A stretch of 64,000 bases of DNA from Flaccisagitta enflata (lineage: Eukaryota): assembly GCA_965153355.1 (NCBI GenBank), contig OZ231126.1, positions 14,012,001-14,076,000 of the forward strand. The letters are read 5' to 3'. Within the stretch, counting starts at the first letter, position 1, and each line of letters begins with the position of its first letter. The position numbers were made by a program, and so were the translations under genes. Below are positions 7,101 through 62,760 of the stretch, one piece after another. The notes below the pieces were generated by a model. The model did not search any database, was not told the DNA's origin, and saw only the letters and a list, made by a program, of their open reading frames with translations.

Positions 7101-10100
7101 TCAAATGAAATATCGTCATTTTCAACCTGCAATTAGCGCCCTCGCGTACACTCATGTATATATGATTTTAAATGAAACGTAATGTTTTGGACAAAAATTT
7201 CATATTTCAAATCAATGAAGCACTAAAACAAAGAATATTTTCATATTGCATACCATTTTTTTACTTTTTGTTTCATTAAACAACATGATTTACAATAAAT
7301 TTGAAAAGATTTTTCCCTTAAATAAAAGTCTGTCATGAGCTTTCTCTTTCTTCAAAAGGGGGGGGCGCTAATTAGAGGGGGGGCGATAAATGCAGGAAAT
7401 ACGGTATTCAAAATATGTTTCATTCGCAACAAATCTGGATATTGTACCACAACATGTGTAAAAATGAGTGCCACTGAGAGAGCCTAAAAGAGGGGTATTA
7501 GACTGTATCTCTCATCAATTTTGATTTTTTTTTTCTTAAGCTCAAGCGGTAAGCCAATAACGCTTTCTTATGAAAGGGACAATAAGTTAACATTTTACCT
7601 TTTTGATTTTCATTTGTCTTCAATGTCTAAGCAAATAGTTTCCTTATACAGGGTGTTTCAAGTGAGTTGTAACATAAAGAATCAACATATCTTTGCTTCT
7701 AGGTACTCAAATTAATTTCTGAAAAAAGATCTAAAAAGATCTTGGTCTGCAGTTTTAGCATGCAAAATTTCATGATAATCGGACTACTCATCTAGATGCC
7801 ACATATCTTTGAAGAACATATGTGATTTCTGACCTCATCAATTTTTATTTTTGACTCGTTATTGTACTTTGGAGTAGCTGTCTTTAATTGTGTGCCATTT
7901 TTCATCAAATTGAGCTAGAACTGTGAGATTGGTCTCAAAGGACAGATTTTTTGTCATAGATTCTAGATCTCCTAAAAAATTTGGAAGTTTATCATTATTT
8001 GCGACTGTTTTTATTGAGCGTTTTGAAAATTGCAATCAAAACCTTGATGAGGTTTGACTAAAATCATTGAAAAAGTTTTCAAATGTTCATAGTTTCCCTG
8101 ATTTCAAAGCAGTTGAGCAATCTATGTTCAAATATCCTTCATTTGAGACCAATCCCAGGATTCTAGATTAATTAGTTTAAAAATGGCAAGCAGTTAAAGT
8201 AAGCAACTGCTAGGTGCATCTATAAAAAAGATGAATTCATACCAAAAATGGTTTTTCTTTTGATTTTTTACTGACACGCATCTATCAATTACTAAAACTT
8301 GAGGTTTTGTATGAAAAAACTGCAGACCAAGATTTTTTTAGATCTTTTTTCAGAAATTAATTTGAATTCCTAGAAGCAAAGATATGTCGATTCTTTATGT
8401 TACAACTCACTTGAAACACCCTGTAATTAAGCATATGAAGTTGTTATGAAGACAAAATTGACAGTAAGAATTGCGGCGATATTTGAATTCTAGTATGACT
8501 GCTCAGAAATGAGAGCAAATGAAAAAAAAAACTTTTTAGTCGCGTGCTACGCGACTCTACACCCCGCTTTGTCGGTCGGTCCGTCCGTCCGTCACACTTT
8601 ACCTTTTCGGTGTTTATGGGGTTTTTGGCTATACCGCTCCTGCCCAAATGCTCCACTGACCTCAAATATGGCCCCTGCCCACCCGCACGCGACTGGGGTA
8701 GCCGTGTATCCGGCCTTGTTTGATAAAAAAAGAAGATAAGAGCTTGAGCTATAAGTACTCATTCTACCTTAAATTGATGCTGTCTACAAATTATTTTGAC
8801 TGTAGAAGGCCTATAAGATTTAGATGCAACAAGACCAATACCTCGCTTGCAGGACTTGAATAACTAAAGAAGACTAAAATTGACTTTATATGACTCAAGA
8901 TGACCAAAAATGACTTAAAAAGACTTAAGATGATTTAAATGATTATATTGACCTGATTGACATAAGTGACTTAATATGACTTAAAATGGCTTAGAATAAC
9001 CTATATTCGCATTTGGGAAAAAATGTGAGCCCAAAAAGCTTAAAAATGCGAAATAATTAATCATCTCATTCTCAAGGCTTAGATCCCAACCTCGAAGCTC
9101 AAATCTCAACCTCAAGCCTCAAATTACTATCTCTAGCACTAATTCTAAGTATCCTTGGATGGACAGCATGATTTTTTAAAGAGAAAAAATCCTATGTTCA
9201 ACCTCAAAAAAATTTGATTTCTAGGAGGTACCTTTGCCAGTTTTCAGATTACTTAATTAACCTTGGAGTAGTTCATCTAGCTGCTTAAATTTAACTTTTT
9301 TGGATCTTACCAAAGGCTTCAGTGGGCTGATCAATGGAAGAAGAAAACTCAACCTGAACTAAATCAACGTAAGTATTTGCACATATTGAACTGTACAGTT
9401 GGGTGTTTCAAAAAAAAATATTTTTGATCAGATCGTCGACATCAGGGTGAGTAAACAAAAGAATTTTAGGACCTTTAGCGTTTTTATTTTTTCAAATTTC
9501 ATTTATCTTCCGTTTTTCCCAAAACCCCTTTTCAGCCGCTAATTTGAATATTGCTGTGTAATTGGTTTTATATCAGAATTATTGTTCATAAATATAATAA
9601 AGTAGCCATTCAAATATCTTGGTTCGATTTCTAGTTGGGATAAGGTAAAAATTGTTTTTTTACCACCGAAATCATGAAAAGAAATAAAACTTGATATTCT
9701 TTGTTGAAGTTTTACGTCTTATTTTCAACAAAGCTAGGTGGAGACTCTGAAAGTATATATATTTTGGACAATCTTGAACTGCGCTAAAAAAATGGAAGAT
9801 GAAGGAAATTTCAAAAAATAAAAATGCTAAAAGTCTTAAAATTCTTTTGTCTATGCACCCTGATGTTGATGATCTGATCAAAGATACTTTGTTTTTTTTT
9901 ACACACCCTTCTGTACAGTAACCACCCCAATCAAGAGATTATTGATATATTCTACGTTTGTCAGCCAAAAAGTGATGACAATAACATGACTACTTATCAA
10001 TCACTTTCATTGAATATGCATCCGCGTCGCACAGTTTGTAATTGTGGGGAGATTCTAATAGCAACGGGGCCACTATTCCCTTTTGCGCCCAACAGGTTTA

Positions 10101-11691
10101 AATGCGCCTGTGAAGGACATGTTGGATATTATCATTATTACAACTCCACGCCCGGGAAATTTCAAAACTTTGACTCAAACTGCGACACGTTTCAAGGAAT
10201 TGATTCAGATTCAACGTTTCTTTCGGTCACGTGTAGTTCTCTGCGACATTTCGGAGTCAAACTCGTGGTCAAAAACAACGCTGTCAATGTCATCATCCCC
10301 TGCATCATCAGCATCCTCTGCATCGTCATCAACCACGTCAAAAACAACTTTTATGTCCGCGACTTCTGTACCCTCAGCATCAACCTCATCGAGTTTGGAG
10401 CCATTTGAATCATTTGAAGATGAAGTAACTCAACTTGAGAAAAGATTCGGGATTATGACAGTCAGAAAAAATACCGAGAAAAACAACAAAAACAAAAACA
10501 ATAATAACCATGCTGATAACGACAACAACAATTACAGAGTCAACATCTTTGAGAAGGAGAAAATTGACTATATCTTCTGTCTTAATGCAACATTAGACAA
10601 AAATTACGACAACCTCAATAACAACAAGAGCGAAACTTCCTCATCATCTGTCAGTGACTTTGTTCTTTTGGTGGAAGACGATGCGTATCCACACCAAGGC
10701 ATTTTTACAGTTCTCCATAGTGTAATAATATCTGTATCTTGATTATTCAAAAAATCTACTATTAATAAGTTGCACTTTACTCTCTTCAGACTACATATGT
10801 GACATTCGGATGTGTTAATATGCAAAAGTATTTTTGTTCAGATCATAAACATCAAGGAATTCAAAGAATTCAATGACTTTTAGCGTTCTTATTTTTTCAA
10901 ATTTCATTCATCCTCCATTTTATTAGCGCAAAAAAAGATAGTCAAAAATATATTCATTTCCAGCATCTGCACCTAGTTTTGGTGAAAGTAAGACCCATAA
11001 TTTAAACAGAAAAAATTTGTTATTGTCTTTTTTTATAACTTTAGTGATAAATGAACAACTTTTACCTTGTTGCAACTAGAATTAGCACAAAAACATTTAT
11101 GGGTTTAAATTTGATTAAATTCAAAAGCAATGTTACTGATAACAAGGCCAGATACATGGCTACCAAAGTCGCGTGCGGTGGGCAGGGGCCATATTTGAGG
11201 TCACCAGACCGTTTGGGCAGGAGCAGGGAGGTCAAAGTAATAAAATCATAAAAAAAAGTGAAGTGTGACCGACCGACCAACTGACCAACCAACGAACCAA
11301 CCGACGGACAAAGCGGGTTGTAGAGTCGTGTGCACGCGACTAAAAACAAATTAGCAGGTAAAAAAAGGTTTTTGAAAAAAAATGGATGATGAATAAAATT
11401 TGAAATCATAAAAGTCTTAGGATTTAATACCTCATGCCTTATGCTGCCTAAAATTGATGGTCTCACCAAAAAACCTTTTGCGTATTGACACACCAGAATG
11501 TGACATGGACAATCAAACTGTTTGAAAACTACCAATAAAGGCGCATATCGCCGACTGGAAAAAGTCATAAACTCGGGAATTTTTTCATTTGTCAAGTCAT
11601 TTTTTGTCATGAACATGTTTGTCCATCCATCTGTGAGTTGGTCCATTCGTTTATCACATCGAAATGTGCATTTTTGGTGCTGCGTTTATGA

Positions 11692-11761
<70 letters not shown>

Positions 11762-14700
11762 GTTTGGGTTTGACTTTTCTCTTTTCAGATCCATCCTTGC
11801 GTCTCTATAATTGGCTGTGTCTCCGTTGGTTGGTTGGTCTTTTGATTGGGTAATGCATTCATGAAAAACATCAGAATCTTGCATATTTCTTCTGAAAAGT
11901 GGTACCAACTCAGTAAAAGTAGCATATCATTCTTAGTAGCATAGTAGCATATCATTCATCCATTCATAAACAACATTCATTCATTGGGAAAAAATCAAAA
12001 AACGTTTTTCAATTTTTTGAGTTTCACTTAGGAATCAATTTTTTCCATTTTCACTTAAAGCGTTTTTAGTAAGTTGGGTTCTGACTAGGCTGGGGTTGAA
12101 ATTGCAACAGGGTGAAAGAGGGCACTTTTTACACCCTCTGGAAAAAAATCAGGGCACTGTCGGACCAATACTTTAGGCGCTATGAATTTTTTAATCTTTT
12201 TTTATTTTTTCACATTTTCTGCATTTTTCTCAAAGATTTTTATTTTTCATCGATCTCAATTTTGGGCCCTAAATAACAACAAATATGAGTTCAGCAGAGG
12301 GCAGAGGGAGGGAGGTGGAGTGAGGAAGGGAGGGGAGGGAAGGAGGGAGAGTGGTAGAAAGAGGGAGGGGGAGGGAGGGAGGGGAGGGATGGAGAAGGAG
12401 GGAGAGGGAGGGAGGGAGGAAGAGGGAGAGAGGGAGGGAGAGAGAGGGAGGAAGAGAGGGAGGGAGGAAGAGGGGGAGGGACATGGAGAGAGCGGGTGGA
12501 AGGGGGAGGGGGGGGGAGGGAGGGAGGGAAAGATTAAGAGAGGGAGAAGGAGGGAGGGAGGGAAAGAGGGATGGAGAGAAGGAAGGAGAGAAAGGGAGGG
12601 AGAGAGAGGGAGTGAGGGAGGAAGATAGGGTGGGAGCGAGAGAGGGAGGGAGTGAAGGAGGGAGATGAGGTGTGAAAGAGAGGGAGAGGGAAGGAGAGGG
12701 GGGAGGGAGGGGAAGGGAGAGGCAGGAAGAGTGAAAGGGAGAGGGGAAGGAAAGGGAGGGAGAGAGGGAGGGAGAGAGGGAGGGAAAGAGGGAGGGAGGG
12801 AGAGAGGGAAGGAGGGGGGGAGGGAGGGAATAGGGGAGAGACAGGGAGAAATAGGGAGAGAGAAGGAGAGAGAGGGAGAGAGAAGGGGGGAGAGAGGGAA
12901 AAAGAGGGAGAGGGAGAGAGAGAGTGAAAGACAGACAGACAGACAGATAAACAAACAACCAACCCAAAAAACAAAAACCATTTTACGATTTTTTTCCGGT
13001 CGGCGAGAGCCGCCTTTACTGGTAAAAAACAATTTTTCATAAGAAGACACTCATCAAAATCATTCATTCAAATAAAACATTAATTAAACAAGGCCAACAC
13101 CTATAAGTCGCGTGCAGGACAAAAATAACTGAACTGACCTGACTCCTTATTGTATCTTTTTATCAAAAATCAGACTTAAACCAGACCCAAACCAGACCCA
13201 AACTAGACTCAAACCAGACTCAAACCAGACTCAAACCAGACTCAAACCAGACTCAAACCAGACTCAAACCAGAATTAAACCAGACCTAAACCAGACCAAA
13301 ACCAGACCTAAACCAGACCTGAACCAGACATAAACCAGACATAAACCAGACGTAAACCAGCCCTTAACCAGACCTAAACCAGACCTGAACCAGACCTGAA
13401 CCAGACCTGAACCAGACCTGAACCAGACATAAATCAGACATGAACCAGACTTAAACCAGACTTAAACCAGACTCAAGCCAGACTCAAACCAGACTTAAAC
13501 CAGACTCAAACCAGACTCAAACCAGACTCAAACCAGACTCAAACCAGACTTAAACCAGACTTAAACCAGACTTAAACCAGACTTAGACCAGATTAAAACC
13601 ATACTTAAACCATACTTAAACCAGGCATAAACCAGACTAAAACCAGACTTAAACCAGACTTAAACCAGACTTAAACCAGACCCAACCAGCAGACTTAAAC
13701 AAGCAGACTTAAACCAGCAGACTTAAACCAGCAGACTTAAACCAGCAGACTTAAACCAGCAGACTTAAACCAGCAGACTTAAACAAGTAGACTTGAACCA
13801 GCAGACTTAAACCAGCAGACTTCAACCAGCAGACTTCAACCAGCAGACTTCAACCAGCAGACTTCAACCAGCAGACTTAAGCCAGAAGACTTAAACTAGA
13901 AGACTTAAACCAGCAGACCTAAACCAGCACACTTAACAGGGTGTGCATAAAGTTTGGCAAAAACATTAAAGCACAAAAACCACACTTTTTGATGGCCCAG
14001 TAACACAAAATTTGAGCTGTAGCCTCCTAATTAGTTTTACTAGATGATAGAATGTGCAGTTTTTCATAAAAACAATCTTGGTTGGCAAAAGAATGAATTA
14101 TGCTCTAGTCAAATTTTCTTATTTCACAGAATTTTTACCAGTAAAACAAAGCTGAGGATATCCATCATTAAGCTTAATATTACATCCTAATAAGTATCCC
14201 AAAGTGGTCAATTCATTGAGGGGTAATCATCAAAGAAGCAGTACGGTCATTCTGACTCAAAATTGGCTCAAAACAATTGTAAAAAATCAACTAAAACAAT
14301 ATAAAAGTCACTATCAGTTTTGTTTTGTTCATCAGACCCCAGACCACCCTAAATTGACCTTTCCTCCCCTTTACTGATTTCAATTTATGAAGTCTTGCTG
14401 CCTGTAGGCAAATAGATTTATGAAAACAACATATCAAAGCTATATTTTTATAAAAAAATCATTTGAAAGCAGTTTGAAATTGTTCTTTATAAAATTTTGC
14501 CAAATTTTTTGCACAGCCTGTTAAACCAGCAGATTTAAACCAGCAGACTTAAACTAGCAGACTTGAACCAGCACACTTAAACCAGCACACTTAAACCAGC
14601 CAACTTAAACCAGCCAACTTTAGCCAGCTGACTTAAACCAGCCAACTTAAACCAGCTGACTTAAACCAGCTGACTTAAACCAGCCAACATAAACTAACCG

Positions 14701-17700
14701 ATTTAAACCAGCTAACTTAAACCAGCCAACTTAAACCAGCCAACTTAAACCAGCCGACTTAAACCAGCAGACTTAAACAGCAGACTTAAACAGCAGACCT
14801 AAATCAGCCAACTTAAACCAGCTGACCAAAACCAGCAGCACAAAACCAGCAGACTTAAACCAGCAGACTTAAACCAGCGGACTTAAACCAGCAGACTTAA
14901 ACCAGCAGACTTAAACCAGCAGACCTAAACCAGCTGACTTAAACCAGCAGACTTAAACCAGCAGACTGAAACCAGCAGACTGAAACCAGCAGACCGAAAC
15001 TAGCAGACTGAAACCAGCAGACTTGAAATGACATGTATGACCAAAACATACCAAAAAACATAAATGACCAAAACATACCAAAAAACATAAATGACCAAAA
15101 AAAAAAAAAAAAAGAAAAAAAAAACAAGAAAAAAAGAAAAACCAAAAAACCAAAAAACCAAAAAACCAAAAAACCAACCAAAAAAACCAAAAAACCAAAA
15201 AACCAAAAAAACCAAAAACTAAAAGACCAAAAAAACATAAAAGACCAAAACATACCAAAACATGCCAAAAAACCATGTTAAATGACCAAAAATGACCGGA
15301 AATGTTCCAAAATGACTTAAAATGACTTAAAACTATCTTAAATGCCCACAAACGACTTAAATGAACAAAGTGACGAAAATGATCAATAATGACCAAAAAT
15401 GACCAAAAGCAACAAAAAATGACCAAAAACAACAAAAAAATGACTCAAAATGACTCCAAACAACCCAAATTGACCAAAAACGACGCAAAAAAGCAAAGTG
15501 TTACTAAAAACTACAAAAGCCGAAAAATAACTTAGACTGACTTAGAATGACTTAGAATGACTTAGAATGACTTGTAATGACTTAGAATGACTTAAAATAA
15601 CTTAGAATGACTAAGAATGACTTTAAATGACTTATAATAACATAAAATGACAAAAATGACAAAAAATGACAGAAAATGACAAAAAATGACAAAATGACTT
15701 AAGTGACTAATATTAACTGAAAATGACTGGAAATGACTTAAAATGACTTAAAATGACATAAAATACCCCAAAAATGACGTAAAAACACGAAAAAAAGCAA
15801 AGTGTTACAGACGGACCGACCAACCGACGGACCGACCAATGGACCGACAGAGTGGGTTATAGAGTCGCGTGCACGTGACTTAAAAAAATCATTCATGCAT
15901 AAAAAACCCTCATTCAAAGAGGACACATTATTGACCTACTTGGCCTTGTTCATTAAGGAATAAACAAATGAAAACAAAACTGATGAACTGATGAACCTAT
16001 GAGTTAGTGAATGAAGGATTAATCTAGGCAACCAATGTGGGAAGTTTAAAGCATACAATCTCTCTGAAGTCAAATTTTCTTTTTTGATATTTTATAGGGG
16101 GCCCTAATAGAGCAAAATATACAACTTTGTATATTTGTTGAAGAAAAATCTTTTGTTTTTTCATCAATTGATAATAATTATGATACAGGTGTTACACTCG
16201 AGAAAGCATCGTATTCCTGAGATCAGCTCCGCACTTTACTTCAAACTTTTCCATCCGGGTTTCTGAAATTATGGCGCTTTTTAGATTTGGTTATGTCCTA
16301 TAAAATTTACTTACGGTACTTACCCTACTAATTTCATTTGAGCCCCCCCCAATTAGCCAGATAAGTTCCTCAACTTCCTCGTAAGAAAATGAAAACCAAG
16401 TTTCTCTGGAATATGTCAAAAAGTTATAGACTCATTTTGACTTTTCCCCGATTTGATTTTTTGTGGATGCGCTATCATTTCACGAAACCCTACTATTGAG
16501 ACCGTCTCCTCGGTTACATTAATCCTGAACCCACCCGCATCTTGGAATGGATTCTTGTCTCAGCTTTTTTCGCAACAATTCTAAGATGGATGCTCATCAT
16601 CCCCATGATGAATTTCAGCAGCGTAAGCGTATGACCAGATGAGTAGTATGGTATTTGGGCAGCGGCACCAAAGGGCCAATGTCCTGAAACAGGGAAATAT
16701 TTCCAGACATCCATCCATTGGCCTGTAAATACTACCTAGGAAATAAATGTAGAACCAACTGAGGAATTGTTTGATTTCTTATCCTTACATCACATGAAAT
16801 ATTCTACTGATAGTATTAGTATTTCGCATAACCTTTTTCTTTACTAACTTATCCAGTTTTACCTGTGGGAGGCAATTTGTAAACTATTTTTTTCATAAAA
16901 TCATGCCGTTGTTCCACTGTTTTTGTTAGACTCTCATAGACTAATTATTTCAAAGACATGTTTGTTTTGTTTTTTTTTGCTTGTCATTTCTAATCGGCTA
17001 AAGCTATAGTAGCCAGATAGCGCTCATCTTGTAGATTTTTTGACATAGATTAATTTGCTTTTTTAAAAAAACTCTCTAGTCTATCCAGAAGCCGAGATAA
17101 TCTAAATTAAAGTTGTCTCTAATTTACATTCAATCTTACCTCATCAATTATTTCGCAAATTTTGAAATGAATGTTTTCACTCTCTTGCTTGTCATTTTTA
17201 AACAAAAAAAGCTTCAGGTACCAGATTGAGTTCATTTTGTAGATTTTTTGATGTAGATTAATTTGATCTTTTTATAAAGTTATCTCGCGTTTTGTAAAGC
17301 TGAGATATCTTATGTAGATGTTGGTTCTATATTTTTTTCCAAGGTAGTACATCCTCCCTGAGACCTCCTTGGCCCTAGTCTAGTATTTTCAGACCCTGAA
17401 TCAGCCCTCTCAAGCCCAAAATCAGCCCTCTTTGACTTGTATTCACCCCTCTCGGACCTCTAATTTTCTCTAAGAAGCCTCAAATTTGCTTATTCAAGCC
17501 TAAATTCTTACCTTTCAGACAGTTCAGCGGCGTAGGAGAAGGGACTTCCGGGACTCTATGGAATTGGAATTCCCTGTTGTCGGGACACTAAAGTTGTCGG
17601 GACACTAAATAAACCAAAAGAAACAAAGGGAAGAAGGAAAAAAAGAGGGGAAAGGAAGGAAAACAGGAAAAAAAAAAGAATAAAAGAAGGAAAGGAAAAG

Positions 17701-19352
17701 AAAGAAAAGAAAAATTCACTGTTTATTTGCTAAAAAATTGCAGAAATCGCAAATTTTTATGATTATAAGGTAAGTGTTACAAGTTGTTTTCAATTGTGCG
17801 ACTAAATTTGTCGGACACCTATTGGGAGTGGAAGTCCTAAAAATCTTTACTCTCCTACGCCGCCGAGAGTCTCAGTCCTAAATCTAGCCATTAAATTGCT
17901 TTCTTAGGCCTTGAATCTACCCTCATCCCTTACCTAATATTAGCTCTTTTATGAGCCCCAAACAACCATTTCAGCCCTCTGATGTGCCTTCTCAAGATAT
18001 CTCAAAATTCACTCCTGTTACTCACTGAACATTGGCGGCCCTGCTCTCTCTCCACAATTTTAGAGTATGGGCAGGAATCACAATGAAAATTTCTCAAAAA
18101 AAAAAAAAGAAAAAAAAAAGAAAAGACACCAACCCCAATTTTTTGCACAGAGGTCTTAAAAAAGGTGTAGAATAAAAATATGATATTTATTTTGGTCAAA
18201 TATTGGCCAAGAAAATTAGAAACTTTTTTTGTGCTCAAAAGTGCCATTTTTGCTCTTAAAACCATATTACTTTGGATATTTTCATGATTTTTTTTGCAGA
18301 TTTGTTTAGACCTAATTCAAATTAGTATTGTAGGGAACTTTGGAGATTCTGGGATATGCCTAAGAGACCTAGAAATGGCTTTGAAAAGCCAAACATGACA
18401 AAATAAGGCAAATTTGTAAAATTCTAACAAATCAAGCATTGAAAACTGTGTTTTAAGGTAATATAGTTCACAGGGAAAATTTGTTTTGATTTCTTTAAAG
18501 ATTTACAAGAGATAGAAGCCAAAAACGCAAAACCGCATTATGCAAATGAGTTTAAAGTTCAATTTTTCAAAAAAACAGACCAAGGCCTCTTTTACATGTT
18601 CCAAAATCTCCATGATACACTAAAATATCAATTTTTACCAGAACTATACAATTGTGCAAATACAATTTTAAAAAACATACAGAGAAACACTATTAAGCAA
18701 AAATAGCATTTTGGCTATTAGAATTAGAAACAGTTTTTTGTGCTTGAAACTAATATTTTTAGTCGCGTGCACGCTACTCTACACCCCGCTTTGTCCGTCC
18801 GTCCGTCAGTTGGTTGGTTGGTCGGTTGGTCATACTTTACTTTTTTTATCAATTTTATTTCTTTAGGTCATTTTAGGTCATATAAGAGTCATTCTAAGTC
18901 ATTCTAAGTCACTCTAAATGTAAGTCTCGCACGCGACTTATAGGTGTTGGCCTTGTTTCTCTTAAAACAATATGTACTTATATATTTTCATTATTTTTTT
19001 ATAGAATTTTGTAGCACTAGTTAATATTAATAATCTGGTGAACTCACAATATTCTAGGATGCGTGTAAGAGGCCAATTACTTTAAAATGCTAAAAACTAC
19101 AGGAATAAACCCATTTTTTACCATTCTGATAAAAAAAACACTAGAAACTGTGTCTTAGAGTAAAATATATGTCAGGTGTAAGTTTCATTGATCTACTAAA
19201 CAGGGGTTCATATTCTAGAGGCACGAGGCACGCCGTGCTTTGGAAGAGGAGGAGGCTTATCGGAAGGAAAGGAAGGAGAGGAAAAGGAAAGGGGAAAAGG
19301 AAAAGGAAGAAAGGAATGGGAAAAAGAAAAAGAAAAAAGAAAAAAAAAGGGG

Positions 19353-19449
<97 letters not shown>

Positions 19450-22380
19450 GAGACAGACGACAGACAAACAGACAGAGAAAGAGAGGTCAAACATTTTGAT
19501 TTTGTGAATATCACTTCAGCGGCAAGGGTCTGTTTATTCTTTTTTAGTACCTGTAAAGCAAACAAAGGTACAGTTGAGCTTCGCTAGAGCGCATTTCAAG
19601 GGACTGTGCCTTATAATGAAGCTGCCTTATTTCCAATATAGATTAAACTACACAATCCTTCATGGGACAGTAAGTTGTGTGTCTTATAGGCGGGCATACC
19701 TTATTGGCGGGTGCCCTCTAGTGAACCTCCACTGTATTTTGCTTTCCATTTTCTGTTTCTTTTCTTTCATTTTGATTGCTACGAGATAGGGAACAAAATC
19801 AATAAACCAATGTCGCGCTTATCCGCACTTTCAGATGAAAGTCAGGCAGACAGGCAGACAGACAGACAAACACAGACTTTTGGCAAAACCTCTGAATAGC
19901 CGTTTACCCCTCCAAGATTCTTTTCCAATGATCAAAATGCCTTAAATACAACTTTGTGGTGGATGGAGGGGTCAACATATGAACGGATGGACCAATCAAC
20001 CAAAAATTGGCTTATAGCATTGCTTTGAATGTGACTAAAAATTAAGTAGTTTGTCGGAAACTTTATGAGAAAAAACTGTGTGCCTCGGAAGATTTTCAAA
20101 ATATGAACACCTGCTATTAAATGAAATGCGCAATTTTTTATCAAAAATAGCTAAACTGCAATATGCAAATGAGATCAAAGTGCAAATTTTCAAAAACGAA
20201 TTGAATCAATATAGTACTAATGATAAAAATTTATGTATTTCAGTAAAAACTAACAAAAAAATATTGAAAAATTCATGTTTTCGTTAGCAAAAAATTCAAT
20301 TTTTTGTACAAACAAGGCCAGATACACGGCTACCAAAGTCGCGTGCGGGTGGGCAGGGGCCATATTTGAGGTCACCAGACCATTTGGGCAGGAGCAGGGA
20401 GGTCAAAGTAATAAAATCATAAAAAAAAAAAGTGTTATCGACCGACCAACCGACGGACAAAGCAGGTTGTAGAGTCGCGTGCACACGACTTAAACTGTTT
20501 CTAATTTTATTGGCCAATATTTGACCATAATAAAGATCATATTCTTTTTAGGTCCCCTGTGTGGGGTGGTGTCTATTTTCTTTTCTAAACCCTTAGAATT
20601 GAGATTTTTCAAGTCTGGATATCTGCCCGAATAGTTTAGTCTACCATTTCAAGCAGGGCATGGGGTATCCCTGACCTGTGACTATGAGCGATCCTTGGAT
20701 GACTTGTAGTCTTGTTAGATCTAACTGGTTCAAAATGGCAGCTTTATTTCCTAACAAAATTTTGTCCCAAAAAACAGAGTGTAAACTTTTTAGTCGCGTG
20801 CTACGTGACTCTACATCCCGCTTTGTCGGTCCATCGGTCCGTCACACTTTACTTTTTTTGTTTATTTGCGGTCTTTGGCCCCACTGCTCCTGCCCAAATG
20901 ATAGAGTGACCTCAAAAACAGCCCTTGCCCACCCGCACGCGACTGGGGTAGCCGTGTATCCGGCCTTGTTTAATTTAAGACCAGTTAAATTTTCCTGAGG
21001 CTGAGACGTCCTTGAATTTTATAGATTATAGGCAGAAATGTTCTTAGCTTGTTTTCAGTATTTTTTATTATTTCATTATGATAATGTTATGCAATAAGTA
21101 ATGACGGATATTTCATAAGGAATATTAATTAGATTAGATAAAAAATGATTGCGTTTGTTTGATTGAAGAACACAACTGATGAATAACAACAAATTGTAGC
21201 TAATTCATATTGATTGATTATTTTAACTAGGCCGGATACAGGGCTACCCTAGTCGTGTGCAGGTGGGCAGTAGCAGTGCTCAAGAAGGTCATTGGGGCAT
21301 TTTGGCAGGAGCAGTAAGCTTAAAAAACTCAAAAACGCCAAAAAAGTATAAAAGGGACCGACCGACCGACCAACCAACCAACTAACCAACCGACCAACCA
21401 ACAGATCGACATAGCGGCGTGTGGAGTCGCGTAGCACGCGACTAAAGATTAGAATCTTAAAAATCTTCAATCTTTTATCTTCGATCCTCAATCTTGTATT
21501 GAAAATATAATTTTTTCCCTATTTGGGGCTTGTCTCAGCCTCATGTCCTTATAAACTTTGTCCATATTCAGAAAAAAAAGTGCAAGACGATTCTCTTGCA
21601 ATGGTCACTATGCTTCCTATTTTCCATGGCTGCCTTAGAGCTACTCGATCGTAACGTCCTTCTTCAATGGCGCAGATTCAATCCGGGGCTTTATTCCATA
21701 GTCCCGGCACCAGGCATGTTTGCATATGTTACCAGGGTTGTACAGGGACAGACCGATCGACCTACACGGCAGAGTGTAGAGTCGCGTGTCCGCGACTAAA
21801 AACTGATCCACCGTGTTGTTGCCAACAAAAGCGAAATTCTATTTAAAGTTTTTGGTAATTTTGAAAGCAGTGAAGAGAAAAGGTCACACAAAGTCTTATT
21901 ATTTCACAAATAGCATCTTGGGTACTTTTGCCGACCTACATAAAGATACATTATGGTTGACAATATGACCAGCCCTACTGCTCCATTATAGGGTATATTG
22001 GGCATAATTTTGCCCAGTCCCAGGACATGCGCTCTAATGAATCTCAACTGTAATTGTGATCACGATGTACAAACGAACCTACCAACCAACAGACTGTCAA
22101 GGCCACTTGCACAGTTGCAAAACAAATAGCTAAAAAAAACCCTCAACCCTATCTGGCACCAGACTGTTGCACTCCGGCCAACGTGTTTCCACGGCGCCAA
22201 ATTCCTCACGTAGTCTCGGCATTGCAGGCGTTCAAATGCCGGCAAGGATTCGCCAAGGACCACGCTTTGGACGCCATCAAGTGGCGCCACGAAACTGGCG
22301 CTTTTCTCATCGAACCAAATCTTGTTGAACACATTGGATTCTACTCAACATTGAGATCACTGGGTGTCCTACGTGTCTAA
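1037..22380 (+). CDS. PGAP4: PGAP4/TMEM246-like GPI-anchor GalNAc transferase, 9 coding exons, ~519 aa
   Basis: join(1037-1126,1687-1823,9316-9368,9936-10037,10096-10721,16189-16258,16501-16622,21572-21713,22163-22380) = 1560 nt, phases consistent, no internal stop. It has an N-terminal TM anchor and PGAP4-type motifs FEKEKIDYIFCL, LLVEDDAYP, LYFKLFHPDRLLGYINPEPTRILEW, two internal TM helices, CCTPA, C..GFAKD and EPNLVEHIGFYSTLR. Confidence 0.9.
1687..1823 (+). CDS. PGAP4: PGAP4-like exon 2 (IITQNDVLKK...ITAENYR)
   Basis: TAG acceptor, GTTTGT donor, open frame, phases 0/2. Confidence 0.65.
1963..2982. mobile_element. Tc1/mariner-type MITE (TA TSD) with a nested MITE at 2219-2552
   Basis: TA|CAGTGGA...TCCACTG|TA; the nested element is related to 7061-7404. 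Confidence 0.75.
3210..3766. mobile_element. Fold-back MITE with long TIRs, TA TSD
   Basis: TA|CACCGTCTT...AAGACGGTG|TA; inverted arms longer than 100 bp. Confidence 0.85.
3817..4668. mobile_element. Mutator-like MITE with 9-bp TSD and a nested CAG...CTG element
   Basis: TCGGGTGT/ACACCCGA termini; TSD CCGGAGTGT on both sides; nested insert ~3845-4156. Confidence 0.85.
5566..7000 (+). mobile_element. Long HINE with internal (GGTCATTTT)n and 14-bp (GTTTAAGTCTGCTG)n satellites
   Basis: HINE head plus the CACGCGACTTATAGGTGTTGGCCTTGTT tail. Confidence 0.8.
7061..7404. mobile_element. MITE, TA TSD
   Basis: TA|CCGTATTTCCTG...CAGGAAATACGG|TA. Confidence 0.8.
7649..8423. mobile_element. Fold-back Tc1/mariner-type MITE
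   Basis: TA|CAGGGTGTTTCAAGTGAG...CTCACTTGAAACACCCTG|TA, long inverted arms. Confidence 0.88.
9316..9368 (+). CDS. PGAP4: PGAP4-like exon 3 (RLQWADQWKKKTQPELNQ)
   Basis: AAG acceptor, strong GTAAGT donor; phase 2 continues exon 2. Confidence 0.65.
9400..9910. mobile_element. Mutator-like MITE with 9-bp TSD, in PGAP4 intron 3
   Basis: TSD CTGTACAGT at 9391-9399 and 9911-9919; body closely resembles the 3817-4668 copy. Confidence 0.85.
9936..10037 (+). CDS. PGAP4: PGAP4-like exon 4 (QIIDIFYVCQ...HPRRTV)
   Basis: The only nearby AG that gives the required phase 1 is CAAG at 9932-9935; GTAATT donor. The 5' boundary is the least certain in the model. Confidence 0.55.
10096..10721 (+). CDS. PGAP4: PGAP4-like exon 5 (LDIIIITTPR...FEKEKIDYIFCL...VEDDAYP)
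   Basis: Lies within ORF 10083-10742; CAG acceptor, GTAATA donor; carries the EDD motif. Confidence 0.88.
10806..11497. mobile_element. Mutator-like MITE with 9-bp TSD and a nested HINE
   Basis: TSD ATGTGACAT on both sides; diverged copy of the same family. Confidence 0.8.
12295..12950 (+). repeat. Polypurine (GA/GGA-rich) low-complexity tract
   Basis: Almost pure A/G; a shorter homolog lies at 63640-63785. Confidence 0.9.
13088..15880 (-). mobile_element. Long satellite-bearing HINE (reverse orientation) with a nested MITE
   Basis: Reverse complement of the same head and tail; 11-bp and 14-bp arrays; TIR element CAGGGTG...CAGCCTG at 13937-14520 flanked by TTAA. Confidence 0.8.
16189..16258 (+). 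CDS. PGAP4: PGAP4-like exon 6 (VLHSRKHRIPEISSALYFKLFHP)
   Basis: Resembles the PGAP4 ALYLKLYHP motif; CAG acceptor, GTTTCT donor. Confidence 0.85.
16501..16622 (+). CDS. PGAP4: PGAP4-like exon 7 (DRLLGYINPEPTRILEW + TM)
   Basis: Resembles the PGAP4 YINPEPMRILEW motif; GAG acceptor, GTAAGC donor. Confidence 0.88.
17526..17864. mobile_element. MITE with GCGGCGTAGGAGA TIR
   Basis: GCGGCGTAGGAGA / TCTCCTACGCCGC. Confidence 0.6.
19570..19733. mobile_element. Small TA-flanked MITE
   Basis: TA|CAGTTGAGCTTCGCTAGAG...CTCTAGTGAACCTCCACTG|TA. Confidence 0.65.
21572..21713 (+). CDS. PGAP4: PGAP4-like exon 8 (TM + ELLDR..WRRFNPGLYSIVPAP)
   Basis: Lies within ORF 21530-21799; CAG acceptor, GC donor. 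Confidence 0.85.
22163..22380 (+). CDS. PGAP4: PGAP4-like exon 9 (DCCTPANVFP...EPNLVEHIGFYSTLRSLGVLRV*)
   Basis: Conserved C-terminal motifs; TAA stop at 22378-22380. Confidence 0.9.
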
Positions 22381-22815
22381 CAATACATCACTTTGGAGTC
22401 GGGTGTGTCAATATGCAAAAGTTCTTCTGATCAAACCATAGCACTAACCCAGCATGGGTATATGAATTTTTGGACCCTCACCTTTTTCTTTTTTTTTCTA
22501 ATTTCATTTATCTTCCGTTTTTGTTTTGCGAAAATCATTTCCAGCCATCATGCAAATTAGGGTAAGGGGCAACATTTCTGTTTGTTTATCTAGCGTTCTC
22601 TCCGTTTGTTTTTCTTTTAAGGATTATACAGTGGTCAACACTGGTAGTGGTACATTTCAGTTATGTTATGGGCCTCGCTATTCCTCTGTGATGCTACTGT
22701 TAACGACTACGAAGCAGGATCTTGACATTGTATTACCTCAACTTTCACGTGATCCGCATTCGCTCTGATTCACCATCCTTAAGGCAGAACAGATTGCAGC
22801 GAAAACATTTGAAGT

Positions 22816-31825: not shown

Positions 31826-32554
31826 TAGGGGACGAGCTACAACTTAAAATTTCTAAGGCTAGGAGCGCATCTCGTTTTGAAAAAAGCTCGCCCGCACACG
31901 GCATTTAGACCGCCATTAATGGAACAGGGATCTTCAATCGCGGAACAGGGTCAATTACATCACTTCATAAGGATCCGGTTATCATTGCCTTTAAATTCTG
32001 GTTGAGAACCAGATCCGGAACAGGACATAACAGTGATTTGGTCGTATTCTAGCAGGCTCTAATTTGTGAGTTTACCGTTATCCAACCCAAAGCGATTTAG
32101 CTTTTGATGAAACTTTTTTTTTTAGATTTAGTAATTCAGGCTTGTATAAAACTCTGGACTCATCTGTGGCTGCCTCGCAAGATGATTGCTCATTGTGAAA
32201 CATGAATCGTAATCAAAGGTTAGGCACTATGTCTCAAGAAAAGCGTGAGGATTGCTCGTCTGTCATCGTTTCTCTGAGTGAAGTGCTCAGAGACAGACAC
32301 ACTGACATACAAAATGACAGTGTCTTTTTGAAAGCATTTTATGGTATTCTTAATACTTTTGAACATTATTTAAACAACTATTAACACAAAAACCCTCATA
32401 TTTCGCAATGACTACATACAAAAATGATCGATAAAATCTGTAGACATCACATTTTACTATTGTATGTGAACTAAAGTCGCTTAAATTCATTAAAGAGAAA
32501 AAAAGAAAATGGGAAGTAAACCAAAAAATACGGTTCTTTCACTGGGATAAATAC

Positions 32555-35068
32555 TTTTTAGATGCGTCCTCGCATCTCTATAAGAGGGTCTGTCCGTCCG
32601 TATGTCCGTCCGTCCGTCCGTCCGTTACCCCTTTTCCAAAAATCCCACAAACCATCTCAAATCAATCACCAACCACCCCCAATCATTTTTAGATGCGTCC
32701 TCGCATCTCTATAAGAGGGTCTGTCCGTCCGTATGTCCGTCCGTCCGTCCGTCCGTTACCCCTTTTCCAAAAATCCCACAAACCATCTCAAATCAATCAC
32801 CAACCACCCCCAATCATTTTTAGATGCGTCCTCGCATCTCTATAAGAGGGTCTGTCCGTCCGTATGTCCGTCCGTCCGTCCGTCCGTTACCCCTTTTCCA
32901 AAAATCCCACAAACCATCTCAAATCAATCACCAACCACCCCCAATCATTTTTAGATGCGTCCTCGCATCTCTATAAGAGGGTCTGTCCGTCCGTATGTCC
33001 GTCCGTCCGTCCGTCCGTTACCCCTTTTCCAAAAATCCCACAAACCATCTCAAATCAATCACCAACCACCCCCAATCATTTTTAGATGCGTCCTCGCATC
33101 TCTATAAGAGGGTCTGTCCGTCCGTATGTCCGTCCGTCCGTCCGTCCGTTACCCCTTTTCCAAAAATCCCACAAACCATCTCAAATCAATCACCAACCAC
33201 CCCCAATCATTTTTAGATGCGTCCTCGCATCTCTATAAGAGGGTCTGTCCGTCCGTATGTCCGTCCGTCCGTCCGTCCGTTACCCCTTTTCCAAAAATCC
33301 CACAAACCATCTCAAATCAATCACCAACCACCCCCAATCATTTTTAGATGCGTCCTCGCATCTCTATAAGAGGGTCTGTCCGTCCGTATGTCCGTCCGTC
33401 CGTCCGTCCGTTACCCCTTTTCCAAAAATCCCACAAACCATCTCAAATCAATCACCAACCACCCCCAATCATTTTTAGATGCGTCCTCGCATCTCTATAA
33501 GAGGGTCTGTCCGTCCGTATGTCCGTCCGTCCGTCCGTCCGTCCGTTACCCCTTTTCCAAAAATCCCACAAACCATCTCAAATCAATCACCAACCACCCC
33601 CAATCATTTTTAGATGCGTCCTCGCATCTCTATAAGAGGGTCTGTCCGTCCGTATGTCCGTCCGTCCGTCCGTCCGTTACCCCTTTTCCAAAAATCCCAC
33701 AAACCATCTCAAATCAATCACCAACCACCCCCAATCATTTTTAGATGCGTCCTCGCATCTCTATAAGAGGGTCTGTCCGTCCGTATGTCCGTCCGTCCGT
33801 CCGTCCGTTACCCCTTTTCCAAAAATCCCACAAACCATCTCAAATCAATCACCAACCACCCCCAATCATTTTTAGATGCGTCCTCGCATCTCTATAAGAG
33901 GGTCTGTCCGTCCGTATGTCCGTCCGTCCGTCCGTCCGTTACCCCTTTTCCAAAAATCCCACAAACCATCTCAAATCAATCACCAACCACCCCCAATCAT
34001 TTTTAGATGCGTCCTCGCATCTCTATAAGAGGGTCTGTCCGTCCGTATGTCCGTCCGTCCGTCCGTCCGTTACCCCTTTTCCAAAAATCCCACAAACCAT
34101 CTCAAATCAATCACCAACCACCCCCAATCATTTTTAGATGCGTCCTCGCATCTCTATAAGAGGGTCTGTCCGTCCGTATGTCCGTCCGTCCGTCCGTCCG
34201 TTACCCCTTTTCCAAAAATCCCACAAACCATCTCAAATCAATCACCAACCACCCCCAATCATTTTTAGATGCGTCCTCGCATCTCTATAAGAGGGTCCGT
34301 CCGTCCGTATGTCCGTCCGTCCGTCCGTTACCCCTTTTCCAAAAATCCCACAAACCATCTCAAATCAATCACCAACCACCCCCAATCATTTTTAGATGCG
34401 TCCTCGCATCTCTATAAGAGGGTCTGTCCGTCCGTATGTCCGTCCGTCCGTCCGTCCGTTACCCCTTTTCCAAAAATCCCACAAACCATCTCAAATCAAT
34501 CACCAACCACCCCCAATCATTTTTAGATGCGTCCTCGCATCTCTATAAGAGGGTCTGTCCGTCCGTATGTCCGTCCGTCCGTCCGTCCGTTACCCCTTTT
34601 CCAAAAATCCCACAAACCATCTCAAATCAATCACCAACCACCCCCAATCATTTTTAGATGCGTCCTCGCATCTCTATAAGAGGGTCTGTCCGTCCGTATG
34701 TCCGTCCGTCCGTCCGTCCGTTACCCCTTTTCCAAAAATCCCACAAACCATCTCAAATCAATCACCAACCACCCCCAATCATTTTTAGATGCGTCCTCGC
34801 ATCTCTATAAGAGGGTCTGTCCGTCCGTATGTCCGTCCGTCCGTCCGTCCGTTACCCCTTTTCCAAAAATCCCACAAACCATCTCAAATCAATCACCAAC
34901 CACCCCCAATCATTTTTAGATGCGTCCTCGCATCTCTATAAGAGGGTCTGTCCGTCCGTATGTCCGTCCGTCCGTCCGTCCGTTACCCCTTTTCCAAAAA
35001 TCCCACAAACCATCTCAAATCAATCACCAACCACCCCCAATCATTTTTAGATGCGTCCTCGCATCTCT
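32555..35068 (+). repeat. Tandem array: 19 units of ~131 bp (HINE 5' end) plus a truncated unit
   Basis: Unit = TTTTTAGATGCGTCCTCGCATCTCTATAAGAGGG + (GTCC)n + unique C/A-rich segment. Units are nearly identical; one is 135 bp and one 127 bp through GTCC copy number. Confidence 0.97.

Positions 35069-50228: not shown

Positions 50229-62760
<12,532 letters not shown>

What the first reader, a model, noticed from the sequence alone, without database searches (positions are those of the whole stretch)
16257..16500. PGAP4 intron 6 is bracketed by an inverted repeat that contains the 5' splice site
Seen: GGGTTTCTGAAATTATGGCGC (16257-16277: last two exon bases plus the GT donor) is near-complementary to GCGCTATCATTTCACGAAACCC (16469-16490), which ends 10 nt before an atypical GAG acceptor. 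Both splice sites are poor (GTTTCT, TTGAG), yet the join gives the conserved FHP-D-RL. Inference: either a MITE became the intron with its TIR providing the GT, or an RNA stem brings two weak splice sites together. No clear TSD is visible.
Basis: partly seen in the sequence, partly recalled or inferred. Interest (0 to 1): 0.75.

Follow-up and report, generated by a model that had tools for sequence, protein, structure and literature searches.

The report
Intron built from a DNA transposon
A small jumping-gene remnant sits inside a sugar-transfer gene of a marine animal and is cut out cleanly as a new intron, a known route to new introns that can here be traced to a transposon family still present in the same genome.

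Summary
The inverted repeat is real (0 of 3000 shuffles match it) and the intron 16259-16500 is spliced in two RNA contigs. It is a gained intron: a nearby paralog and 58 of 60 outgroup loci run through the site without it. The arms are the decayed tips of a non-autonomous DNA transposon family still in this genome (at least 57 other 'A' ends; GG termini; 8-9-bp target duplications, Merlin-like; no transposase linked). The geometry fits exactly. The element spans 16257-16490, the GT donor is its bases 3-4, a decayed 8-bp duplication follows its far end, and the odd GAG acceptor is two host bases after that; protein length is unchanged. A required RNA stem is not supported: a second gene copy has lost the outer pairs, and RNA of that type is spliced at the same place. 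The interior is a piece of an unrelated repeat. It looks like a single event, not a many-copy introner family, though two other introns absent from the paralog also show repeat footprints. The scan has unchecked notes on similar single cases in other genomes.

The parts
16189..16258 (+). Upstream PGAP4 exon; its last two bases (16257-16258) are the first two bases of the transposon end
   Evidence: RNA contigs start at 16189 and join to 16500; translation
16249..16256 (+). Left (exonic) copy of the inferred 8-bp target-site duplication
   Evidence: 4 of 8 to the right copy here, 5 of 8 in the C5 copy; P 0.12 and 0.03; weak
16257..16279 (+). 5' arm: tip of the transposon 'A' end; GT donor at its bases 3-4 (16259-16260)
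   Evidence: 21 of 24 to family variants L231/L233; C5 copy 21 of 23 to L231-L233; outer 7 bases 5 of 7 to the family end
16259..16500 (+). The 242-nt GT-AG intron, phase 1, inside the codon of the residue matching human PGAP4 E249 (Asp here)
   Evidence: absent in paralog L058 and in 58 of 60 outgroup loci; the E249 match is inferred from spacing to the EDD motif
16280..16303 (.). Unassigned filler
   Evidence: found only in this intron and its C5 copy
16317..16453 (-). 5' end (about 135 nt) of an unrelated high-copy repeat of about 850 bp, antisense; resembles a Helentron-type non-autonomous element (features recalled; abstract of PMC4067079 seen)
   Evidence: 38 of 40 scored matches cover only this part, out of 1801 candidates; family consensus with 12-nt subterminal inverted repeats
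16461..16490 (-). 3' arm plus 8 inner bases: tip of the transposon 'B' end
   Evidence: 21 of 22 (C5 copy 22 of 22) to family copy L262; the 8 bases outside the search core match 7 of 8 and 8 of 8
16491..16498 (+). Right (intronic) copy of the inferred target-site duplication
   Evidence: a 9-bp reading (16490-16498) fits equally well
16499..16500 (+). AG acceptor, inferred to be the two host bases that followed the target site; first AG after a 69-nt AG-free stretch
16501..16622 (+). Downstream PGAP4 exon

Best explanation
The intron is a gained intron made by insertion of a non-autonomous cut-and-paste DNA transposon into a PGAP4 exon. Shown: the site is empty in the paralog and in outgroups, the arms match the two ends of a transposon family in this genome in the right orientation, and the intron is spliced. 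Inferred steps: (1) the element inserted A-end first and duplicated 8 (or 9) host bases; (2) its end starts GGGT, so bases 3-4 gave a GT donor and bases 1-2 stayed in the exon; (3) the two host bases after the duplicated site were AG and became the acceptor, so the two retained transposon bases replaced them one for one and only the third base of a proline codon changed; (4) the interior was later lost or replaced by a piece of another repeat, and the ends decayed. The inverted repeat is a fossil of the terminal repeats. The ordinary spliceosome most likely takes the GAG because it is the first AG after a pyrimidine-rich, AG-free stretch.
For: Empty site in paralog L058, whose reading frame is open across the position, with 44 residues between the same anchors in both genes. 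58 of 60 outgroup loci read through the site and none shows a break there. The core shared by both arms has 80 genome hits against 17 for the control; 13 of the 28 other loci inspected are the end of one family. The family's other end has 57 further copies against 0 for the control. Of 10 complete copies, 6 have perfect 8-bp duplications, 1 a perfect 9-bp, 1 an 8-of-9, 1 a decayed 5-of-8 and 1 none. Bases outside the search core match the family: 5 of 7 (P 0.006) and 7 of 8 / 8 of 8 (P 7e-4 / 3e-5; unadjusted). Particular copies share the intron's own variants: 21 of 23 and 22 of 22. The 10-nt gap between arm and acceptor equals the family's duplication length plus 2, as a length-neutral gain requires. 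The joint is seen in RNA.
Against: Only about 23 and 30 bases of the roughly 150-bp terminal repeats remain, and the interior has no match to the family. The family was found with a pattern made from the arms, and the pattern was written after seeing one copy, so those counts are not independent. The duplication at this site is only 4-5 of 8. The outer 7-8 bases of the 3' arm fit the family B end poorly. No transposase was linked to the family. Both RNA contigs have C, not G, at the first transposon base. The outgroup loci are redundant and were ranked in a way that favours intronless genes.
Confidence: 0.85

Rival explanations
1. Whatever its origin, the stem now works at RNA level: pairing of the arms brings the weak donor and acceptor together and is needed for correct splicing. 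This is compatible with the transposon origin.
For: The arms pair at -26.1 kcal/mol and the fold has z -2.5 to -2.7. The 14-bp core is unchanged in both copies (0 of 28 positions). The donor is far from consensus, and a stronger-looking donor lies at 16381 in the window copy only.
Against: Core conservation is within chance (P 0.17 at the interior rate of 11 of 179). There is no compensatory change; 4 of 15 outer positions differ, all reducing pairing in C5 (duplex -16.9, z -1.2). C5-type RNA (X3) shows the same joint, and window-type RNA (X1) lacks the outermost pair. A stem over the donor would be expected to hide it from U1 snRNP (general knowledge).
Confidence: 0.12
2. The likeness to the transposon family is chance; the intron was gained some other way (for example filler DNA at a repaired break), with a hairpin-type end duplication.
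For: The matched stretches are short and AT-rich, the target duplication is weak, and the interior comes from another repeat.
Against: Both arms match the two different ends of one family at the terminus and in the right order, with significant matches outside the search core. The duplication length predicted from the geometry equals the family's.
Confidence: 0.07
3. The intron is old and was lost from the paralog by reverse-transcript gene conversion.
For: L058 seems to keep a 5' intron while lacking the 3' ones, a pattern typical of such loss.
Against: 58 of 60 outgroup loci also lack it, and recognisable transposon ends would not survive in an ancient intron.
Confidence: 0.03
4. The intron is really cut one base to the left, as a non-canonical GG..GA intron.
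For: The RNA joint is formally ambiguous by one base.
Against: The GT-AG reading gives the same mRNA. The other 7 introns placed in the window are GT-AG (6) or GC-AG (1).
Confidence: 0.03

Closest known systems
Introners of the TIR/TSD type (Micromonas pusilla IE1; families surveyed by Gozashti et al., bioRxiv 10.1101/2022.06.06.494994 and PMC12130899; review PMC11282704; passages read)
   Same: A DNA transposon with terminal inverted repeats inserts in an exon, carries one splice site, co-opts the other from host sequence, and leaves the mRNA length unchanged.
   Different: Introners are families of many similar introns. Here only one intron (in two gene copies) is known, and none of 29 other family ends inspected had a coding-looking flank (by eye). 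The donor is 2 bases inside the element and the acceptor lies just beyond the duplication, not in it.
Merlin superfamily of DNA transposons (definition from PMC8101967, passages read: terminal repeats of 24-462 bp, terminal GG, 8- or 9-bp duplications)
   Same: GG termini, 8- and 9-bp duplications, imperfect terminal repeats of about 150 bp; Merlin-type transposases exist in the genome (15 matches).
   Different: No transposase was found in five long copies, and none of the 15 Merlin loci has these ends within 1.5 kb. Other superfamilies with 8-bp duplications (hAT, P; recalled) are not excluded.
Single intron gains by transposon insertion in Drosophila, rice, maize and Oikopleura (review PMC3443670, passages read)
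   Same: A one-off gain in which the element's end or nearby host sequence supplies splice sites.
   Different: The textbook model uses a duplicated AGGT. Here neither site comes from the duplication, and two transposon bases replace two host bases in the exon.

Membership tests
Transposon-derived intron | Spliced out in RNA | tested here: met
   One contig each in X1 and X3 joins the exons; contigs show presence only, and no raw reads covered the exons
Transposon-derived intron | Gained: homologs lack an intron at the position | tested here: met
   Paralog L058; 58 of 60 outgroup loci, 2 unresolved
Transposon-derived intron | Ends homologous to the termini of a transposon family | tested here: met
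Transposon-derived intron | Target-site duplication at the insertion | tested here: inconclusive
   4 of 8 and 5 of 8 at the predicted place
Introner family | Many sequence-similar introns in different genes | tested here: not met
   The intron ends occur in only 2 copies of this gene; 0 of 29 other A-end flanks looked coding (by eye; 29 of 57 inspected)
Merlin | Terminal 5'-GG | tested here: met
   Both family ends start GG
Merlin | 8- or 9-bp target-site duplication | tested here: met
   8 of 10 complete copies perfect or with one mismatch
Merlin | Terminal repeats of 24-462 bp | tested here: met
   About 150 bp at about 90% identity
Merlin | IS1595-type DDE transposase in an autonomous partner with the same ends | tested here: inconclusive
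   0 of 94 ORFs hit a transposase family; 0 of 15 Merlin loci carry these ends within 1.5 kb, a flank that may be too short
Functional RNA stem bridging splice sites | Compensatory changes or excess conservation of pairs | tested here: not met
   No compensatory change; core P 0.17; only two sequences compared
Functional RNA stem bridging splice sites | Loss of splicing when pairs are broken | not testable with these tools
   Needs a minigene
Helentron-type non-autonomous repeat (interior piece) | Subterminal inverted repeats and a 3' hairpin, no target duplication (recalled) | tested here: inconclusive
   12-nt subterminal inverted repeat in the consensus; insertion sites and partner not examined

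The most novel reading that the evidence does not exclude
This animal lineage (a marine planktonic invertebrate; 9 chromosomes would fit an arrow worm, untested) has gained many introns from several DNA transposon families, with Merlin-type ends acting as ready-made donors. PGAP4, intron-free over this region elsewhere, would be one sample of a genome-wide wave: three introns absent from the paralog, each with an inverted- or direct-repeat footprint. No chaetognath appears in the 12 of 14 supplementary files of the large introner survey that were searched, and no family there is finally classed as Merlin.
Probability: 0.2. Interest if true: 0.72.

Novelty: new member of a known kind. Interest (0 to 1): 0.46.

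Why it matters
Most gained introns in animals have no traceable source (review PMC3443670, passages). Here the empty site, the source family with its duplication length, the length-neutral geometry and the spliced RNA are all in hand, so the birth of the intron can be followed base by base. It also shows that a transposon end starting GGGT, landing before an AG, can become an intron with only a silent change, and that very weak splice sites are tolerated. If more such introns exist in the genome, it would add an animal lineage, and possibly a transposon superfamily, to the known sources of introns.

Tried and rejected
MITE family of the whole intron: DNA searches with each end found only the two gene copies. 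Arm patterns with 2 mismatches gave 6 and 15 hits, and no non-self hit showed a partner arm by eye. The high-copy interior repeat as source of the arms: it matches only 16317-16453. Autonomous partner: none in five long copies (94 of 105 ORFs sent, the 11 left out lying mostly in the flanks) or among 15 Merlin loci. A family for the inverted repeat of intron 10722-16188: 4 hits, 3 of them in the two gene copies. Known RNA family in the intron: no Rfam match there; one chance-level hit in the next exon. Pfam gave no PGAP4 model hit, and a first homolog search found nothing; the gene name rests on homology to full-length proteins with the EDD motif and on the PGAP4 paper. Run X5 (raw reads) did not cover the exons and X2 covered only the downstream exon, so splicing efficiency is unknown. 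Four introns of the fukutin-like gene show no repeat footprint, which counts against a genome-wide wave. One probability was computed one base out of register and was redone. The coordinates of intron 21714-22162 were off and were corrected. Literature searches for chaetognath + intron gain, intron gain + Merlin and introner + Merlin listed no such case; the library lacks most subscription papers.

Full report
Observation. They align at 19 matches in 22 columns with one gap, and none of 3000 shuffles of the intron ends scores as well. The region folds with z -2.5. The genome has 794 Mb in 9 contigs, and the exon is held by marine metatranscriptomes. Of four runs laid on 16050-16800, X1 and X3 each have one contig that joins the exons across the intron. 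Both have C at 16257, and the joint reads as GT..AG (16259-16500) or, one base left, GG..GA. Their loose ends also place the neighbouring junctions at 10721/16189 and 16622/21572. X1 resembles the window copy. X3 shares letters with a second copy of the gene on contig C5, which has the same intron at 89% identity. Contigs show presence, not efficiency. The number 'intron 6' could not be confirmed.

The intron is a gain. A third PGAP4 gene about 120 kb upstream of the intron (L058) has one open frame across this site and across the sites of introns 10722-16188 and 21714-22162. At the fourth site it has an in-frame insert of unclear nature. The spliced window gene and L058 have the same 44 residues between the EDD and EPTR anchors. 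Of 60 outgroup loci from metagenome contigs, 54 read through the site by tblastn and 4 more by motif. Two are unresolved, and none shows a break at the site. These loci are redundant and their ranking favours intronless genes, so they count as a few lineages, not 58.

What the arms are. The intron as a whole is not a repeated element: its ends occur only in the two gene copies. Its interior, 16317-16453, is the end of an unrelated repeat of about 850 bp with many copies. A search with the 14-base core common to both arms gave 80 hits against 17 for the control. Of the 28 other loci inspected, 13 are one end ('B') of a single family. One short copy revealed the other end ('A'), which begins GGGT and has 57 further copies (that pattern was written after seeing the copy). 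Complete copies run from 259 bp to 4.6 kb, with terminal repeats of about 150 bp. Six of 10 have perfect 8-bp target duplications, one a perfect 9-bp, one 8 of 9, one a decayed 5 of 8, and one none. The intron's 5' arm matches the A end from its first base, and its 3' arm matches the B end. Bases that were not in the search core match at 5 of 7 and at 7 of 8 or 8 of 8. Some family copies share the intron's own variants: 21 of 23 for the C5 5' arm and 22 of 22 for its 3' arm. Two of 29 other A ends also stop matching after 21-23 bases, so tip-only derivatives exist in the family.

How it works. Taking the element as 16257-16490, the donor GT is its third and fourth base. Eight bases follow its far end, then the AG. 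Those eight bases match the eight before the element at 4 of 8 here and 5 of 8 in C5 (P 0.12 and 0.03), which is weak alone. A 9-bp reading with the element ending at 16489 fits equally well. The stronger point is the spacing. A length-neutral gain with two transposon bases left in the exon needs the acceptor to end exactly duplication length plus two bases after the element, and the family's 8-9 bp satisfies this. The inferred result is that two transposon bases replaced two host bases and changed only the third base of a proline codon. The GAG is then simply host sequence. It is the first AG after 69 AG-free bases, which is within the 31-88 range of the other introns placed here. Retention would meet a stop within three codons. 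The insertion order and the later replacement of the interior are inferred, not shown.

The RNA-stem rival. Between the two copies the 14-bp core has 0 differences in 28 positions (P 0.17 at the interior rate of 11 of 179). The outer 15 positions have 4 differences (P 0.011, post hoc), none compensatory and all lowering pairing in C5. The C5 arms pair at -16.9 against -26.1 kcal/mol, and the C5 fold has z -1.2. C5-type RNA is spliced at the same place. One of the four differences has the family base in C5, so the direction of change is not uniform. A role for the core stem is not excluded with two sequences, and the window copy has a competing donor-like site at 16381.

Comparison with what is known. 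The mechanism is that of TIR/TSD introners. The survey bioRxiv 10.1101/2022.06.06.494994 (passages) already lists cases where a splice site comes from neighbouring exon sequence, and the review PMC11282704 (parts 1-2 of 5) describes the Micromonas model. It fails the many-copy test of an introner family: none of 29 other A-end flanks looked coding (by eye). GG termini, 8-9-bp duplications and repeat length meet the structural definition of Merlin in PMC8101967 (passages). However, no transposase was tied to these ends, so I call it Merlin-like only. In PMC12130899 (passages; 12 of 14 supplements) Merlin appears only as a terminus hit on a family classed as unknown, and no chaetognath is listed. 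Files 13-14, and the closed supplements of the preprint, could bear on this. The phylum is a guess from 9 chromosomes (PMC12460157, passages) and planktonic RNA. PMC5785973 (passages) supplies the PGAP4 motifs, PMC3443670 (passages) the standing list of gain mechanisms, and PMC4067079 was seen as abstract only.

Wider pattern. Intron 10722-16188, also absent from L058, has its own inverted repeat at the ends (30 of 3000 shuffles in the window, 0 of 3000 in C5) but no family. Intron 21714-22162 is GC-AG with an 8-base direct repeat (1 of 2000 shuffles) and is not RNA-checked. Against a genome-wide wave, four introns of the fukutin-like gene in the window show neither footprint.

Verdict. A real, spliced, gained intron, most likely (0.85) built from a decayed Merlin-like DNA transposon whose relatives are still in the genome. 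It is a well-documented new member of a known kind. Interest 0.46.

Noticed in passing
window 10722-16188: Upstream PGAP4 intron, absent from paralog L058, is also bracketed by an inverted repeat (20 of 22 in the C5 copy) that includes the AG acceptor and six exon bases; no family found.
   Followed up: partly
window 21714-22162: GC-AG intron, absent from L058, with an 8-base direct repeat at both ends that includes the AG; looks like a target duplication. Not RNA-checked.
   Followed up: partly
L058:1620-1830: The paralog has an in-frame insert of about 60 codons, partly a serine repeat, at the position of window intron 16623-21571. A related transcript-derived protein (P0001) lacks it, so it may be a stop-free intron or an intron in the making.
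   Followed up: no
window 9900-22400 and G000:C5:63.787-63.798 Mb: The whole PGAP4 gene has a second copy on another contig at about 92% identity, with different repeat insertions; RNA of both types is seen.
   Followed up: partly
window 50316-62758 (minus strand): Fukutin/LicD-like gene with at least five exons; its four placed introns are GT-AG, two with purine-rich ends and little pyrimidine tract.
   Followed up: partly
window about 50570-50630 (minus strand): A piece of the same 850-bp repeat family that fills the PGAP4 intron lies, again antisense, just before an acceptor of the fukutin-like gene; such pieces may supply pyrimidine tracts.
   Followed up: no
L144:380-2267: A Merlin-type transposase locus bracketed by a 29-bp GG-starting inverted repeat; a different family from the one described.
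   Followed up: no
window 32450-35050: Tandem array with a unit of about 131 bp, seen as repeating reading frames.
   Followed up: no
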